Source: Candidatus Zixiibacteriota bacterium (GTDB lineage: Bacteria > Zixibacteria > MSB-5A5 > GN15 > FEB-12). From it: a stretch of 14,880 nucleotides of DNA. The position numbers were made by a program, and so were the translations under genes. Position 1 is the stretch's first letter; each line of letters begins with the position of its first letter. The notes beneath the pieces are model-generated. The model had not been told where the DNA came from. It worked only from the letters and a program-made list of their open reading frames with translations, and ran no database searches. The DNA lies in assembly GCA_041742355.1 (NCBI GenBank), contig JBGSIV010000173.1, forward strand, positions 1 to 14,880, in the 5' to 3' direction. Below, one piece after another: positions 908 through 14,681 of this stretch.

Positions 908-1044
908 TGTGCGGAAGTGATAGTGGCGCCTCGCGAAAGCGATGCTGACGACACGCGAGGTCCCTTGAAAAAGAAAGCAACCAACGCGCATAGAGTGACA
1001 AGAACCACCGTTTTAGAAACCACCAAATGCTAAAGGAGCAACCA

Positions 1045-1620
1045 ATGGCAGTAGCCAAGAAGAAAGCCACCGCGAAGAAGGCGGCTAAGAAGCCGGTCAA
1101 AAAGGCCGCCAAGAAGACCGTGAAGAAGGCCACCAAGAAGGCCGCGCCGAAGAAGTCTGCGAAGAAGGCTCCGGCCGCGAAGAAGCCGCTCAAGAAGAAA
1201 GCCGCCCCGAAGAAGACGGCGAAGAAAGCGGTCAAGAAGACCGTGAAGAAAGCGACCAAGAAAGTCGCGAAGAAGCCCGTCAAGAAGACCGCGGCCAAGA
1301 AGAAAACGGCCAAGAAGACCGCGAAGAAGGCAACCAAGAAAGCGGCAAAAAAAAAGACCGCGACTAAGCGAGCCCCAAATCCGGCGTTCATGAAGCCGTT
1401 GCAGCCCTCTCCGGAACTCTCCGAAGTGGTCGGCAACAAGCCGATGCCGCGGACCGAAGTGACCAAGAAGCTCTGGGCTTACATCAAGAAGAACGGTCTG
1501 CAGGACGCCAAGAACAAGCGCATGATCAACGCCGACGACAAGCTGAAGAAGGTCTTCGGCGGCAAGATGCAGGTCTCGATGTTTGACATGACCAAACACG
1601 TATCCAAGCATCTGAAGTAA
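1045..1620 (+). CDS. Histone H1-like Lys/Ala-rich protein with C-terminal SWIB/MDM2 domain
   Basis: AAAGGAG RBS precedes ATG 1045. About 105 aa of KKAAKK/KKTVKK repeats are followed by the SWIB signature FMKPLQPSPELSEVVG..MPRTEVTKKLWAYIKKNGLQD..NKRMINADDKLKKVFG. Confidence 0.92.
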   Translation: MAVAKKKATAKKAAKKPVKKAAKKTVKKATKKAAPKKSAKKAPAAKKPLKKKAAPKKTAKKAVKKTVKKATKKVAKKPVKKTAAKKKTAKKTAKKATKKAAKKKTATKRAPNPAFMKPLQPSPELSEVVGNKPMPRTEVTKKLWAYIKKNGLQDAKNKRMINADDKLKKVFGGKMQVSMFDMTKHVSKHLK

Positions 1621-8347: not shown

Positions 8348-9526
8348 ATGGGACACAACAGACAGGATAACTGGCAGTTCGAAACGAAAGCGATCCACAG
8401 CGGCACGGTCCCCGAAGACGGCACCGGATCGGTAACGACCGCGATATTCCCCAGCTCGACCTATCGGGTGGAGTACCCGGGGGATGAGTCGGGGTACGTG
8501 TACGCCCGGTGGAAAAACCCCACCCGCCTCGCGCTGGAGGAGACGCTGGCAAAGCTCGAGAACGGCACCAAAGCGGCTGCGTTCTCCTCGGGGCTGGCCG
8601 CGCTCGACGCCGTGCTCAAGCTTCTCAAGAGCGGCGACCATGTCGTGGCGGTCGACGACCTCTACGGCGGCACCATGCGCCAGTTCGAGCGGATCGCCCG
8701 CCGGTTCGGGCTGGATTTCAGCTATGTCGACGGCCGCGACCCGGTGAATTTCGAACGCGCCACCAAAGAGAATACGAAGCTGTACTGGCTCGAGACCCCG
8801 ACCAACCCGCTCATGCACCTGATCGATATCGAGGCGGTCGTTGCGATCGCAAAGAAGCGGAATATCCTCGTCGGCGTGGACAACACGTTCGCGACCCCCT
8901 ACATCCAGCGCCCGCTCGATCTCGGCGCGGATATCGTGCTGCACTCGATGACCAAGTACCTCGGCGGGCACTGCGACCTGGTGGCCGGGTCGCTGATCAC
9001 GAAGGATGAAGAGCTGGGTCAGCGGGTCTGGTTCAACCAGTACGCCGGCGGCGCGCACCTGGGACCATGGGAGTCGTGGCTGGTGCTGCGCGGCCTGAAG
9101 ACCCTGCACCTGCGGATGGAGCGGCACTCGGTCAACGCGCAGAAGATCGCCGAGTACCTCGAAACGGTCGACGTGATCGACAAGGTGTATTTCCCCGGCC
9201 TCGACGGCAAGCCGGTGCCGAACCGGATGCGCCTCCCCGGCGGGATGGTGGCGTTCACCATCAAGCCGGATTTCGGCTTCGAGGCGGTCAAGGAGTTCGT
9301 CATGTCCCTGCACGTGTTCGTGCTGGCGGAGTCGCTCGGCGGCGTGGAATCGCTGGTGAATCATCCAGCGGCGATGACGCACTCATCGATCCCGAAAGAA
9401 ATCCGCGAGGAGCGGGGCATCACCGACGGCCTGGTGCGGCTGAGTGTCGGCGTCGAGCACATCGATGACTTGCTGATCGATCTCCGGCAGGCATTCGAGG
9501 TGTTGAAGAAAAAGGTCCGGGCGTAG
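8348..9526 (+). CDS. Cystathionine gamma-lyase/synthase (Cys/Met metabolism PLP family)
   Basis: [44 protein letters not shown] (PLP Lys), [19 protein letters not shown]. Starts 6 nt after the CBS gene. Confidence 0.93.
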
Positions 9527-9617
9527 GAGGGGTTCACGGCATAGGTCGGGATCACGGCGTAGGCCGGGTTCACGGCGTAGGTCGGGTTCCGAGGCGCTCC
9601 GCGCCGAGAAACCCGAC
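9523..9617 (+). repeat. Tandem 18-bp repeat (3 units, consensus GTAGGTCGGGTTCACGGC) ending in a complete GTAG-hairpin REP (family E)
   Basis: Units start at 9523, 9541 and 9559. At 9577 follows GTAG-GTCGGGTT..GGCGC-TCC-GCGCC..AACCCGAC (to 9617). Confidence 0.8.
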
Positions 9618-9642
9618 TGCAAGACCACGAATCAGGAGACCG

Positions 9643-9825
9643 CAGACGTAGGTCAGGCTCCTTGGAGCCTGACAAGGCAAAGCAATCGTAGGGCACGACC
9701 CTTTAGCGGTCGTGCCTCTTTTCATGTATGGGGTCGCCCACAGCTTGCTGTGGGATCCGTTAGACCCTGGCCGCAGGTCGTGCCTCTTTTCTTGTAGGGC
9801 AGGAGCCCCTCGGCTCCTGCCATTA
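9643..9825 (+). repeat. Mosaic REP cluster copy 1 (GTAG-hairpin families C-B-A-D)
   Basis: GTAG-GTCAGGCTCC-TT-GGAGCCTGAC (9648-9673); GTAG-GGCACGACC-N7-GGTCGTGCC (9688-9716); GTCG-CCCACAGC-TT-GCTGTGGG (9733-9754); GTAG-GGCAGGAGCC-N4-GGCTCCTGCC (9794-9821). Confidence 0.88.
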
Positions 9826-9934
9826 TCTCTGCACGCACGTTTGATTCAACGTCCGGACCGTACAGGTCCTGACATTGACTCAACGCAGACGTTCGGACAC
9901 TGTCTCTCTTGCGAAATCCAGTCCTGTCGGTCCG

Positions 9935-10963: not shown

Positions 10964-10974
10964 CTCGGCTAGGT

Positions 10975-11193
10975 ATAGGGCACGACCCTTCAGATCAGAC
11001 GTAGTTCAGGCTCCTTGGAGCCTGACAAGGCTAACCACACGTAGGGCACGACCCTTCAGCGGTCGTGCCTTGTCTTCTGATGGGACCTGCGAATACGAGT
11101 ACCCCACAGCTTGCTGTGGGATCCGTAAGACTCTGGCCGCAAGTCGTGCCTTGTCTGTTTGTAGGGCAGGAGTCCCTCAGACTCCTGCCATTA
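10975..11193 (+). repeat. Mosaic REP cluster copy 2 (truncated B, then C-B-A-D)
   Basis: Half B at 10975-10993; C at 11001-11026; B at 11041-11069; A at 11099-11120; D at 11161-11189. Same order and similar spacers as 9643-9825. Confidence 0.88.
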
Positions 11194-11236
11194 ACCTAAT
11201 CAATCGGCACGAGTACCCCACAGCTGCTATGTACGT

Positions 11237-11242
11237 TGTCAA
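11237..11242 (-). promoter_or_regulatory. -35 box (TTGACA) of the IS circle-junction promoter; the -10 box TATGCT is at 12599-12604 (minus)
   Basis: Joining the two IS ends through one core gives TTGACA-acgtacatagc-AG-taac-TATGCT, a 17-nt spacer. Confidence 0.85.
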
Positions 11243-11259
11243 GGTCATGTTCGAGGTCG

Positions 11260-11449
11260 TGGCGTGAATTCTAACCAGTCTGCTATTCGCGGCCTCGACC
11301 GTAGTCGAGCCGCAGGTAAGGTTTCCGATTGTTTTCACGTCCGGGGCGGCATACTTGCTGACGTGGCCGGGATCTCACCCGCCACAGCTGTGGGTACGCC
11401 GCACCCGGGAGGATCTATGATCCAGAATTCTTTGCCATTACCGATCGTC
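11260..11449 (-). ncRNA. Predicted bridge RNA / seekRNA of the IS110 element
   Basis: Two stem/internal-loop/stem modules: a target-binding loop at 11341-11408 with guides CCCACAGCU and CAGCAAG, and a donor-binding loop at 11263-11339 with guide AUAGCAG and a cUACGg tetraloop. G-U pairs are compatible with the minus strand. Exact RNA ends are unknown. Confidence 0.82.
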
Positions 11450-12508
11450 CTACGCCGCCGCCTTCAGCACGTACGGGCGCCCGTCCAAGACCACCCGCCG
11501 GCACCGCAACAGCAGCCGCCGGGCGACCGCCACGATGGCCCGCTTGCTCCCCGAACGAGGCAGCACCCGCCGGTACACCGCCCCCAACTCCGCATCGCGT
11601 CGCACCGCCACCCACGATGCTTCCACCAACAGCCCGCGCAGGTAGCCCTTGCCCACCCGGCTGATCCGGCCCAGCCGCACGTGCTCGCCGCTGGAGTACT
11701 GCGACGGCGTCATTCCCACGTAGGCCGCCAGATCATCGCCGTGGCTGAACCGGCTCATATCGCCCAACTCCAACAGCAGCGCCATGGCCGTCACCAGGCC
11801 AATCCCCGGCAGACTCGTCACCCACTGGAACGCGTCCCGGTAGCGCTCGTGCTGCGACAACACCCGCAGCAGGCGGGTCTGGGCCGCCACCTGCTCGCGC
11901 ACGAAGACATACTCTTCCAAAAGCCGGTGAAAGCTCGCCTGGGCAAACTCATCCCCCACCGGCAGCTGCCACAACCCGTCCAGCCACCGTTTCGACCAGC
12001 GCCCGGTGCAGCCGCTGATATCGATGCCGTAGAACATCAGCTCCGCTTTGATCCGACTCTGCAAACGCACCCGATCCCCCAGCAGCTGGCAGCGCCGCCG
12101 CAGCACCTGGCGGTGTCCCCGCAGCTCGGGGTCCGGCACCCAGTTCGCCCGCAAAAGCCCTCGCGACAGCAGCAGAGCCAGCTTCCGGCTGTCCCGCTTG
12201 TCGGTCTTGACCCGATTGCCGTACTCCATCGGGACCAGGCTCGGCGGCGTCACCACCGCCTGCGCGCCCCAGCGAACAAGCGCGTCATGCAAAGTGTACC
12301 CGAAGTATCCCGCCTCGTACACCACCGTCGTCTGCGCCGGACGGTAGGCCCCCAAAAGCCCAAACAACGCGACGCTGCCGGCCGGGATGCTGCCGGTGAA
12401 CAGCTCCACCTCCTCGGTGCGAATCGTCACGTGCCACTGCTTCAGATGCACATCCACACCCACAAAAATCGCCTTGTCCTGAATCGCTTCTGCGTCGTAC
12501 CTTCTCAT
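11450..12508 (-). CDS. IS110-family DEDD transposase/recombinase (352 aa)
   Basis: AGGAGG RBS before ATG 12508. RuvC-like DEDD residues in VGVDVH, VVYEAG and KTDKRDS; SLPGIG; YVGMTPSQYSSG (catalytic Ser loop); GRISRVGKGYLR; AIVAVARRL. Confidence 0.95.
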   Translation of the reverse strand: MRRYDAEAIQDKAIFVGVDVHLKQWHVTIRTEEVELFTGSIPAGSVALFGLLGAYRPAQTTVVYEAGYFGYTLHDALVRWGAQAVVTPPSLVPMEYGNRVKTDKRDSRKLALLLSRGLLRANWVPDPELRGHRQVLRRRCQLLGDRVRLQSRIKAELMFYGIDISGCTGRWSKRWLDGLWQLPVGDEFAQASFHRLLEEYVFVREQVAAQTRLLRVLSQHERYRDAFQWVTSLPGIGLVTAMALLLELGDMSRFSHGDDLAAYVGMTPSQYSSGEHVRLGRISRVGKGYLRGLLVEASWVAVRRDAELGAVYRRVLPRSGSKRAIVAVARRLLLRCRRVVLDGRPYVLKAAA

Positions 12509-12655
12509 CTGAGCCTCCTGGTCGCTGAGGGTCTTGTCGTTACGGTTGTGATTCACGACAAGATACCCGTGGCGAACAGAGGCTCAACTAATACCCGTAG
12601 CATAGTTACTTGCTGTGGGACAGCCGAGGTCATAGCCAGTCACATGAGTAAGAGA

Positions 12656-12677
12656 GTAGCCCACAGCTTGCTGTGGG
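12656..12677 (+). repeat. REP family A (GTAG-CCCACAGC-TT-GCTGTGGG), downstream of RAYT
   Basis: Perfect 8-bp hairpin with a 5' GTAG tetranucleotide. Confidence 0.9.
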
Positions 12678-12719
12678 ATTGCCGAGATACCACAGGATTC
12701 GCCGCGAGTACAGCTGAAT

Positions 12720-13229
12720 CTACAGCGAGGGCGGCCTCCAATCGTCAAGTTCGATCGGAACCGGGCGAACACCATGGTACCAATTGTAGCTCGACCAGCA
12801 CCACTCCCCTGGCTCTGCCACTAAACCGCGCCGCACCGGATTGCTGTGGCAGTAGTGCACTTTGGTTCGAACGACCTCAAGTGAACGGCAATTGTGATCG
12901 AAACACCGTCGATTCCAAAAGACGTGTTTGGCACAGACTTCTGTGAACGGAGGACAGGACTTGAAGTAGGCGATTGCAGAGCGAGACTTGATTTCTCCGA
13001 CGATCAGACCAAGCCGCTGACCTTGGCACGGAATGAGAACAAGATGGACGTGCTCTGGCATGACGACATACCCGATGAGCTTGAAGCCATGTTTCTTCCG
13101 CACCAGCGCCAGCGTTTCAAGGAAGATTTCAATTACAACCGGGTCGGAGAGGAACGGCAAGTACCGGTAGCAGCAGAAGGTTACGAAACGAGCCGTATCA
13201 CAATCGTCGTAATGGCGGAGCCGGGTCAT
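12720..13229 (-). CDS. REP-associated tyrosine transposase (RAYT/TnpA-REP, Y1 HUH family)
   Basis: ARFVTFC, VVMPEHVHL (HUH), FWNRRCFDH, YCHSNPVRRGL (catalytic Tyr + NPV), WCWSS. Flanked by inverted REPs and not accompanied by tnpB. ATG at 13229 is preferred, because the longer ORF-track start lies inside a REP. Confidence 0.9.
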   Translation of the reverse strand: MTRLRHYDDCDTARFVTFCCYRYLPFLSDPVVIEIFLETLALVRKKHGFKLIGYVVMPEHVHLVLIPCQGQRLGLIVGEIKSRSAIAYFKSCPPFTEVCAKHVFWNRRCFDHNCRSLEVVRTKVHYCHSNPVRRGLVAEPGEWCWSSYNWYHGVRPVPIELDDWRPPSL

Positions 13230-13252
13230 TGTCAATACTCGTACTAAGGGAT

Positions 13253-13274
13253 CCCACAGCAAGCTGTGGGGTAC
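13253..13274 (-). repeat. REP family A, inverted copy upstream of RAYT
   Basis: Minus strand GTAC-CCCACAGC-TT-GCTGTGGG. Confidence 0.9.
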
Positions 13275-13379
13275 TCAGTGACACTCTGATGACTCGAAGA
13301 TCCGCCAGTTCCAATGGACTGGCAATCACATTTCTTGAAGGGCGGGTAGGTTGGTAGTGGCTGGTCGGATCCATGGGAA

Positions 13380-13401
13380 CCCACAGCAAGCTGTGGGCTA
13401 C
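13380..13401 (-). repeat. REP family A, second inverted copy upstream of RAYT
   Basis: Minus strand GTAG-CCCACAGC-TT-GCTGTGGG. Confidence 0.9.
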
Positions 13402-13430
13402 TCCTACGTCGAAACCCCCTGTGGAATTGC

Positions 13431-14681
13431 TCACGACTCTTTCGACAACCCCTTCCTCCTCTCCAGCCTCTCCCTCCTCCGCACCAACGCCTTTCGGCGG
13501 GCAGCGGTCAGCCCCGGCCACCTCTCGGCACAGCGCGTGTGCTCCAGCGCCGCAGGGTAATCACGGAGCTTGTGCTCGCAGTAGACGGCCAATTCGAGCC
13601 GGGCCAGGAAACCCTCGCGAGAATCGAACTGCGTCAGGTGCTGCCAGAGCCTGACCGCCTGCTCGTACTCCCCCGTCCGCTTGAACGCCATCGCGTGGAA
13701 GAGGAGGATGTCGGGCGGGAGTGACTCGCCGGGGAGCAGGTGGTCGGAGCCGATGTCAACCACCCGCCGGTTGAGGTCAATCACGTTCGGCAGATCGCGA
13801 CGCCTCCCAAACACGCGCGACAGCGAGTGTAAATCGTCGATGGCGTCAAGCCTCTCCCCTTTCGATTCGAACACCTCCGCCAATATTGTCGCAAGGAAAT
13901 ACAGCGAGACGACATCGTGCCGGTTGTGCTCGAGAACCTTCTCCATGTCATCGAGCTTCTGCCCGGTCAGCCAGTCGAAGAAGACCGACGGCACGAGGAA
14001 ACCGGGGATATCATCGACACGATGGAAACCGAACACCTCGCGTTCGATATTGCCGAGACTGCAATCGCCCAGGCGCCGTCGGAAGAGGCGACGGACACCG
14101 TGAAGCAGATCGATATGGCGGGCGTGGGGGATTTCGCGGCCGACACGGTTGACGATGAAGCGGTCGCGCAGAATCGGCAAATCGAACGCGGCGCCGTTGT
14201 AGGAGGCGAGGACAGTCCGGTCAGTGAATTCCTCGGACACCGCTTCGAGCATCGCGGTCTCGTCTTCGTAGTCGGGCAGAAGATACTGGCGGACCTCGAA
14301 GCCGTATTCTGTCAGAGAGCCGGTTCCGATGAGAAAAGCGGCCGCGCCCGTACCGCCGAGGCCGATCGTTTCGAGGTCGAAGAAGACGACCTTGTCCAGC
14401 GAAACGAGTTCGGGATCATCGCCGGAGGTGTAGGCCAGCGCGGGCAGATGGGTGCGATCGAGCAGGTCGGCCAGGGCGATATCGCCGTGGCGGTAGGTGT
14501 CGGTGCAATGGTAGCGACTGAAGCAGTAGTTGCCGGATCGTCCGCAGACCAGTTCCATTCCGAGCCGCTCCGACAGGAGGCGGTAGCGATCCGGGACGTC
14601 TGCTGGCGGTTTCGCCGCCGGCTTGGTCACGACCAGGTTGCGGACGAGGTCGAGTTTACTGTGAAGGCTCCTTTTGGCCAT
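13431..14681 (-). CDS. YprB/MrfB-like RNase H-fold (DEDD) exonuclease with C-terminal TPR-like helices
   Basis: FFDLETIGLGG, SYNGAAFDLP, HIDLLH, SLGNIEREVFG..RVDDIPG, HNRHDV, and a TPR-like C-terminus (LELAVYCEHKLRDY..AL). Confidence 0.85.
   Translation of the reverse strand: MAKRSLHSKLDLVRNLVVTKPAAKPPADVPDRYRLLSERLGMELVCGRSGNYCFSRYHCTDTYRHGDIALADLLDRTHLPALAYTSGDDPELVSLDKVVFFDLETIGLGGTGAAAFLIGTGSLTEYGFEVRQYLLPDYEDETAMLEAVSEEFTDRTVLASYNGAAFDLPILRDRFIVNRVGREIPHARHIDLLHGVRRLFRRRLGDCSLGNIEREVFGFHRVDDIPGFLVPSVFFDWLTGQKLDDMEKVLEHNRHDVVSLYFLATILAEVFESKGERLDAIDDLHSLSRVFGRRRDLPNVIDLNRRVVDIGSDHLLPGESLPPDILLFHAMAFKRTGEYEQAVRLWQHLTQFDSREGFLARLELAVYCEHKLRDYPAALEHTRCAERWPGLTAARRKALVRRRERLERRKGLSKES

What the first reader, a model, noticed from the sequence alone, without database searches (positions are those of the whole stretch)
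11097..13403. Nested system: a RAYT/REP locus parasitised by an RNA-guided IS that targets the RAYT's own REP
Seen: the RAYT gene is flanked by family-A REPs in inverted arrangement (+ strand at 11099, 11213 [interrupted] and 12656; minus strand at 13253 and 13380). The IS110 sits about 110 bp from the RAYT stop, inside one of these REPs. Established: RAYTs recognise a GTAG-type tetranucleotide plus hairpin and are implicated in REP spread. Inference: the enzyme that multiplies the targets and the element that consumes them are physically linked, which may be chance or a co-travelling module.
Basis: partly seen in the sequence, partly recalled or inferred. Interest (0 to 1): 0.72.

Follow-up and report, generated by a model that had tools for sequence, protein, structure and literature searches.

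The report
RNA-guided IS inside RAYT's repeat
An ordinary RNA-guided jumping gene is aimed at a common genomic repeat, and one of its several copies happens to sit in a repeat next to the enzyme gene linked to that repeat; this looks like chance rather than a partnership.

Summary
The parts are real. An intact RAYT (12720-13229) is bracketed by inward-facing family-A REPs. An IS1111-type element (11226-12608) sits at the CT in a REP loop, 109 bp from the RAYT stop. Its downstream RNA folds with covariation, and its target loop spells both REP halves.

The link looks like chance. The genome has 4 left and 4 right IS junctions, all in family-A REPs, and only one is near a RAYT. With 83-100 targets, the chance of such a hit is 0.15-0.32. 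IS110 was found beside 0 of 55 related RAYTs, and a RAYT beside 0 of 19 close IS loci.

The window is probably a misjoin through the collapsed IS. Gene order in 4 of 5 relatives points to contig C242 as the true left flank, so the REPs at 11099 and 11213 probably belong elsewhere.

Supported: family A is this RAYT clade's repeat (32 of 55 relatives), and guides of related ISs track their own targets. REP-targeting IS110/IS1111 elements are well known (IS621, ISPa11, ISPpu9/10). This scan has noted the same nesting on other DNA. Verdict: new member of a known kind.

The parts
12720..13229 (-). RAYT (TnpA_REP) gene, 169 aa, intact HUH (H60-V61-H62) and Y126-x3-NP
   Evidence: NF047646 above cut-off; PF01797; only PDB match is TnpA_REP 4er8, E 3.4e-7; motifs shared with 3 relatives
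11226..12608 (-). IS1111-type IS110-family element, 1383 bp between two CT core copies (11224-11225 and 12609-12610); one of at least 4 copies
   Evidence: junctions; length and imperfect subterminal inverted repeats
11450..12508 (-). DEDD recombinase/transposase, 352 aa; D19, E65, D103, D106 and S273 read by eye from the sequence
   Evidence: PF01548 + PF02371; NF033542; IS621 and ISCro4 matches
11226..11449 (-). downstream non-coding region, predicted bridge/seek RNA
   Evidence: folding z -3.7; 16 of 25 consensus pairs have a double-sided change across 12 sequences
11386..11394 (-). left target guide, same sequence as the left REP half plus core
   Evidence: 9 of 9 match
11354..11360 (-). 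right target guide, reverse complement of core plus right REP half
   Evidence: 7 of 7 match
11280..11286 (-). candidate donor guide matching 7 nt of the element's own end
   Evidence: read from the sequence; nearly invariant in homologs; no clean second donor guide found
11237..11242 (-). -35 box that meets a -10-like hexamer at 17 bp only in the circular form
   Evidence: -35 at 5 of 6 or better in 14 of 18 elements
12611..12619 (+). right half of the interrupted family-A REP (outer REP of the RAYT cassette)
12654..12677 (+). intact family-A REP downstream of the RAYT
13253..13276 (-). intact family-A REP upstream of the RAYT
13380..13403 (-). outer family-A REP upstream of the RAYT
11211..11225 (+). 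left half of an interrupted REP; a real IS junction, but probably of another insertion site
11097..11120 (+). intact family-A REP; probably not at the RAYT locus in the real chromosome
13431..14681 (-). RNase_H_2-family gene used as synteny anchor
   Evidence: PF13482; neighbours in relatives

Best explanation
Two known systems meet at a shared sequence. A RAYT gene with inward-facing REPs is the likely source of about 100 family-A REPs in this genome (association shown; catalysis inferred). A recently active IS1111-type element carries, downstream of its recombinase, an RNA whose target loop pairs with both strands of the REP around the CT in the hairpin loop (sequence match shown; pairing inferred from IS621 and ISPa11). 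It most likely excises as a circle, gains a promoter at the joined ends and recombines into any family-A REP (inferred). It did so at least four times. One hit fell in the outer REP of the RAYT cassette because RAYT genes are surrounded by their REPs. The RAYT probably supplies landing sites, but the two are not a unit.
For: All 4 left and 4 right junctions lie at the same REP position. A RAYT-like ORF is on 1 of the 7 junction contigs. Guides match the target 9/9 and 7/7. Across 12 distinct guide pairs, 112 of 144 non-core positions match their own flanks, against a permutation mean of 53.7 and maximum of 99 in 20,000. P(at least one of 4-6 copies among 4-5 RAYT-near REPs) is 0.15-0.32. IS110 lies near 0 of 55 RAYT relatives. 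A RAYT lies near 0 of 19 close IS loci and 1 of 126 wider IS loci. In G137 and G240 (6 and 10 contigs, 5 copies each) the nearest RAYT-like gene is about 3 kb and 15 kb away; in G137 its locus lacks the target repeat. A near-identical IS has other flanks in runs X7, X3 and X2. Family A or a close variant flanks 32 of 55 related RAYTs, on both sides in 25.
Against: Few events in this genome (4-6), so a modest bias toward the RAYT locus cannot be excluded. Many homolog loci are short: 86 of 126 had a usable flank on at least one side. Collapsed ISs at contig ends can be missed; an end-motif scan of 55 RAYT loci showed none adjoining a REP half, judged by eye. Only 12 other genomes of 284 hold the close IS, and few hold one aimed at the local RAYT's REP, so the cross-genome test is weak. 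An unchecked scan note (e1-7670569) reports the same nesting in another genome. No RNA or biochemical data.
Confidence: 0.85

Rival explanations
1. Co-travelling module: the RAYT cassette and the IS move together, so the enzyme that multiplies targets arrives with the element that uses them.
For: The RAYT-REP cassette looks like a gain at this site: its two probable flanking genes are adjacent in 4 of 5 relatives, and its GC is 0.545 against 0.62. The IS sits in its outer REP. The three same-genus genomes have no exact family-A core and no close IS.
Against: 0 of 55 RAYT relatives have an IS110 beside them; 0 of 19 close IS loci have a RAYT; genome overlap is 1 of 12. The IS splits the outer REP and lies outside the inner pair, so a move using the intact REPs would leave it behind (inference). 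Near-identical IS copies have other flanks in other samples.
Confidence: 0.04
2. Local bias: insertion is favoured at REP-dense or single-stranded RAYT loci (RAYT-bound hairpins, transcription), without co-transfer.
For: One of 4 right junctions is at the RAYT, which holds 4-5 of 83-100 targets. A similar nesting is noted in another genome (e1-7670569, unchecked).
Against: Within chance (P 0.15-0.32). None of the 10 copies in G137 and G240 has a RAYT within about 1.2 kb, although G240's target family flanks one of its RAYTs (L232).
Confidence: 0.09
3. The IS-RAYT adjacency itself is an assembly artefact.
For: The IS is a collapsed repeat and the window's left join is probably wrong. No piece spans the whole stretch.
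Against: The right junction runs through unique sequence into the RAYT. A separate contig of run X1 (12591-13278) holds the last 20 IS-side letters, the half REP and the RAYT; this is below the tool's 31-letter bridging rule, and X1 may be the source sample. The C242 left junction fits by gene order, giving a complete site.
Confidence: 0.02

Closest known systems
ISPa11 (IS1111 group; Pseudomonas aeruginosa REP; seekRNA shown) - PMC11187229 passages, PMC1525189 abstract
   Same: Non-coding region downstream of the transposase, subterminal inverted repeats, fixed site and orientation in a REP, guide segments for both target strands.
   Different: Different host, REP and guide. Sequence identity to ISPa11 was not measured. 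No RNA data here.
IS621 / ISCro4 bridge recombinases - PMC11208160 passages and section 12
   Same: DEDD plus serine domains, CT core, left and right target guides in one internal loop, REP target.
   Different: IS621 has its RNA upstream and only very short subterminal repeats. Here the RNA is downstream, and only one donor guide is clear.
ISPpu9 / ISPpu10 of Pseudomonas putida - PMC1525189 abstract; PMC8450116 and PMC12288879 search listings
   Same: Multi-copy IS110-family elements inserted in REPs; KT2440 also has RAYTs (PMC2817692 Table 1 passage).
   Different: Different element and REP. Whether their target REP is the cognate of a KT2440 RAYT was not checked.
RAYT/REPtron (TnpA_REP) - PMC2817692, PMC3479197, PMC8266576, 10.1101/279083 passages
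   Same: HUH-Y1 gene with Y-x3-NP flanked by oppositely oriented, genome-wide repeated hairpins. PMC2817692 already states that other ISs use REPs as targets.
   Different: The head is variable (only GT fixed) rather than GTAG/GTGG. Subclass not assigned; cleavage not tested.

Membership tests
IS110 family | DEDD domain (PF01548) plus C-terminal serine domain (PF02371) | tested here: met
IS110 family | Fixed target site and orientation around a short core | tested here: met
   8 of 8 junctions at the same CT, same orientation
IS1111 group | Long non-coding region downstream of the transposase | tested here: met
   224 bp downstream, 100 bp upstream
IS1111 group | Subterminal inverted repeats (7-17 bp per PMC11208160; usually 11-13, near-perfect, per PMC11187229) | tested here: inconclusive
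   about 9-10 bp with a one-base bulge; fits the wider range, short of the usual one
IS1111 group | Transposase falls in the IS1111 clade | not tested
   no reference IS1111 proteins were at hand; no tree built
Bridge/seek RNA system | Structured RNA with guide segments for both target strands | tested here: met
Bridge/seek RNA system | Donor-binding guides for both donor strands | tested here: inconclusive
   one 7-nt match is conserved; the second is only partial
Bridge/seek RNA system | RNA expressed, binds the recombinase and directs recombination | not testable with these tools
   needs a bench assay
RAYT/REPtron | HUH and Y-x3-NP motifs; family model above cut-off | tested here: met
RAYT/REPtron | Flanked by inverted REPs that are abundant genome-wide | tested here: met
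RAYT/REPtron | GTAG/GTGG tetranucleotide at the hairpin foot | tested here: inconclusive
   GTAG on 2 of the 3 intact REPs next to the gene but on 19 of 96 genome-wide; GT is fixed
RAYT/REPtron | Binds and cleaves cognate single-stranded REP | not testable with these tools
   needs an in vitro assay
   0 of 55, 0 of 19, 1 of 126
   P 0.15-0.32; low power

The most novel reading that the evidence does not exclude
One IS1111-type clade in this phylum has repeatedly re-aimed its guide at different RAYT-associated repeats (family A here, a variant in G137, another family in G240) and can use up the perfect copies: G137 has 5 insertions and no perfect empty 20-mer left. REP variation around this RAYT clade would then be partly an escape from the IS, a three-way RAYT-REP-IS coevolution readable from genomes. 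Guide tracking is shown; escape or selection is not.
Probability: 0.1. Interest if true: 0.6.

Novelty: new member of a known kind. Interest (0 to 1): 0.24.

Why it matters
As it stands it adds a clean, recently active bridge-recombinase clade with several naturally reprogrammed guides and readable targets, and a RAYT clade with a variable-head REP, in a little-studied phylum. That is useful material but no new mechanism. It also shows that windows from fragmented assemblies can join unrelated flanks across a collapsed IS. A true RAYT-IS module, or REP escape from the IS, would link REP diversification to an RNA-guided parasite; the evidence here is against the first and silent on the second.

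Tried and rejected
Co-travelling module: rejected.

Window read as the true chromosome order: rejected for the left join. I could not find the true right partner of the window's left flank. Neighbours of the hydrolase and cystathionine-lyase-like genes in relatives map to other contigs (C174 interior, C168, C299), not to C64, C65 or C238.

A short pattern search for IS ends in G051 and G034 gave counts like its control and was not informative. The promoter scan of the linear locus found none.

Sequencing runs: no RNA holder listed. No contig joint for an empty site or a circle appears among the rows shown. The RAYT had no cover in X7 and X3 and almost none in X2, which proves nothing. X1 depth (IS 46.6, flanks 7.3-10) fits 5-6 copies but is not a copy number.

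Rows left out of the guide test: 8 of 30 loci lacked a parsed guide or a flank (L002, L021, L051, L052, L053, L055, L158, L164), and 10 repeated a guide already counted. The G240 left guide was parsed one base out of register, which lowers the score. The element itself is one of the 12, and kin are not independent.

Literature: 'IS110 + RAYT + REP' gave 4 listed papers; I read passages of 3 and none of those passages describes a linked module. 'REP-associated tyrosine transposase + bridge RNA' gave 0; 'Zixibacteria + IS110' gave 0. Supplements were not read and ISfinder is not available, so the element may already be catalogued. No structure or complex prediction was run; it would not change the verdict.

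Full report
Observation. The window is contig C173 of a 4.37 Mb, 310-contig genome. The ORF 13229..12720 (169 aa) is a RAYT: NF047646 at 91 bits against a cut-off of 80, only PDB match TnpA_REP, HUH and Y-x3-NP kept. The ORF 12508..11450 (352 aa) is an IS110-family recombinase. The element runs 11226-12608 between two copies of the CT of the hairpin loop, 109 bp from the RAYT stop.

The repeat. The 18-nt core has 76 exact and 96 one-mismatch copies. It occurs in 34 of 61 genomes searched, this one included, with no hits for the reversed control. The head varies: GTCG 46, GTAC 25, GTAG 19 of 96. Of 55 other loci with a related RAYT (42-59% identity), 32 carry family A or a close variant within 300 bp, 18 the exact core, and 25 on both sides facing inward (counts exclude this locus). 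The five other RAYT-like loci in this genome are flanked by other repeats. Family A is therefore very probably this RAYT's repeat; catalysis is inferred from TnpA_REP work (PMC3479197 and PMC8266576, passages).

The IS. Its long non-coding region lies downstream of the gene, as in the IS1111 group (PMC11208160 section 12; PMC11187229 passages). It folds better than 200 of 200 shuffles (z -3.7). Across 12 sequences, 16 of 25 consensus pairs have a double-sided change. One internal loop carries a 9-nt copy of the left REP half plus core and a 7-nt complement of core plus right half. All 79 empty exact copies of that 14-mer lie in the repeat. Joining the ends creates a -35/-10 pair spaced by 17 bp; the -35 is kept at 5 of 6 or better in 14 of 18 elements. 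Subterminal repeats are about 9-10 bp and imperfect. Only one donor guide is clear.

Copies and chance. The assembly holds 4 left and 4 right junctions, identical on the IS side over the 121-129 bp assembled, all at the same REP position. A RAYT-like ORF is on 1 of the 7 contigs that carry them. With 83-100 targets, 4-5 of them near the RAYT, and 4-6 copies, the chance of at least one such hit is 0.15-0.32, before allowing for the fact that the case was picked because it looked striking.

Assembly. The other three copies are cut at contig ends, so the full copy in C173 joins one left and one right flank without proof. No contig of the four runs laid spans the stretch. In G001, G003, G012 and G014 the RNase_H_2 gene right of the RAYT is followed directly by a gene that here lies on C242 beside an IS left junction; G002 differs. 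In G001 the next gene also maps to C242. The real order is probably: C242 gene, REP split by the IS, REP, RAYT, two REPs, RNase_H_2 gene. The REPs at 11099 and 11213 then belong to another insertion site. It also implies that the RAYT cassette was gained at this site, between genes about 70-120 bp apart in relatives. I labelled the C242 protein HDOD-like from recall of its sequence pattern; no call tested that.

Across genomes. Close IS relatives (E up to 1e-70) occur in 12 of 284 other genomes of the phylum, and close RAYT relatives (E up to 1e-50) in 57 of 284. One genome (G137) is in both sets, against about 2.4 expected (Fisher p 0.47; thresholds arbitrary, kin not independent). No RAYT was found in the 19 new close IS loci. 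One was found in 126 wider loci, beside a 38% partial match (L113); 86 of these loci had a usable flank. No IS110 was found in 55 RAYT loci of up to 1.5 kb a side. In G137 one of five copies is about 3 kb from a distant RAYT-like gene (32%) whose locus lacks the target; in G240 the nearest is about 15 kb. Near-identical copies of the IS have other flanks in runs X7 (whole element, 12 differences, REP head at the junction), X3 and X2.

Guide tracking. The two closest relatives (77%, 73%) have the same guides and family-A-like flanks. G137's five copies have changed guides and sit in the matching REP variant. G240's five copies target another palindrome, a relative of which lies beside one of its RAYTs. 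Others target further sequences. Over 12 distinct guide pairs, 112 of 144 non-core positions match their own flanks, against a permutation mean of 53.7. This is the natural reprogramming reported for the family (PMC11187229, passages). Against it: G051's copy matches its guide poorly as parsed (2 of 7 and 3 of 5) and has three extra bases at the end.

Mechanism. Shown: parts, target site, guide match, multi-copy state, RAYT-REP association. Inferred: RAYT-driven spread of family A; RNA expression; excision, circle promoter and strand exchange as in IS621 and ISPa11. Insertion splits the hairpin loop, so that REP is probably lost as a RAYT substrate (loop bases matter for group 3 enzymes; PMC8266576, passages), while the inner REP pair stays intact.

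What is known. IS621, ISPa11, ISPpu9 and ISPpu10 insert into REPs (PMC11208160 passages; PMC1525189 abstract). The paper that named RAYTs already notes that other ISs use REPs as targets (PMC2817692, passages). RAYTs are mostly single-copy and vertically kept (PMC5581495, passages). Searches for a described RAYT-IS110 module found none, nor this element in this phylum; supplements and ISfinder were not seen. Earlier notes of this scan report the same nesting or REP targeting in other genomes; I did not check them. The phylum label Zixibacteria comes from such a note.

Verdict. A new member of a known kind: an IS1111-type bridge-RNA element aimed at a RAYT-associated REP. Its position beside the RAYT is explained by REP density, and part of the described arrangement is probably an assembly join. 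Interest 0.24.

Noticed in passing
window 12611-13403 with G000 C242 start; L238, L240, L241, L242: The RAYT-REP cassette lies between two genes that are adjacent in 4 of 5 relatives, and has lower GC (0.545 against 0.62): a RAYT gain at this site.
   Followed up: partly
genome-wide; L129-L157, L251-L276: The four bases at the foot of family-A hairpins vary (GTCG, GTAC, GTAG here; GTGC, GTGG, GTAA in relatives); only GT is fixed, unlike classical GTAG/GTGG REPs.
   Followed up: partly
G000 C262, C274, C214, C233, C160: Five more RAYT-like loci, each flanked by its own abundant repeat; C233 has an internal stop and C262 matched only in part.
   Followed up: partly
G137 (L159, L168, L171, L173, L175): Five IS copies in one REP variant. 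No perfect empty 20-mer remains, only 8 sites with one mismatch: possible saturation of targets.
   Followed up: partly
L003 (G051:C26): Three extra bases at the element's downstream end, and the two flanks match different REP variants; slippage or another misjoin.
   Followed up: no
window 9520-9830 and 10965-11200: Two paralogous mosaics of several REP families on either side of the hydrolase gene; one of the families flanks the RAYT-like gene on C214.
   Followed up: no
L162, L163, L165, L166, L167, L170, L056, L161: Related elements with different guides sit in other hairpin-like or repeated sequences; whether those are RAYT-associated was not tested.
   Followed up: partly
window 1027-1620: Lysine/alanine-rich repetitive, histone-like protein with a C-terminal part that I recall as SWIB-like; not tested.
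   Followed up: no
L218/L222 (G240:C8) and L260 (G136:C86): Tandem or nearby pairs of RAYT genes.
   Followed up: no
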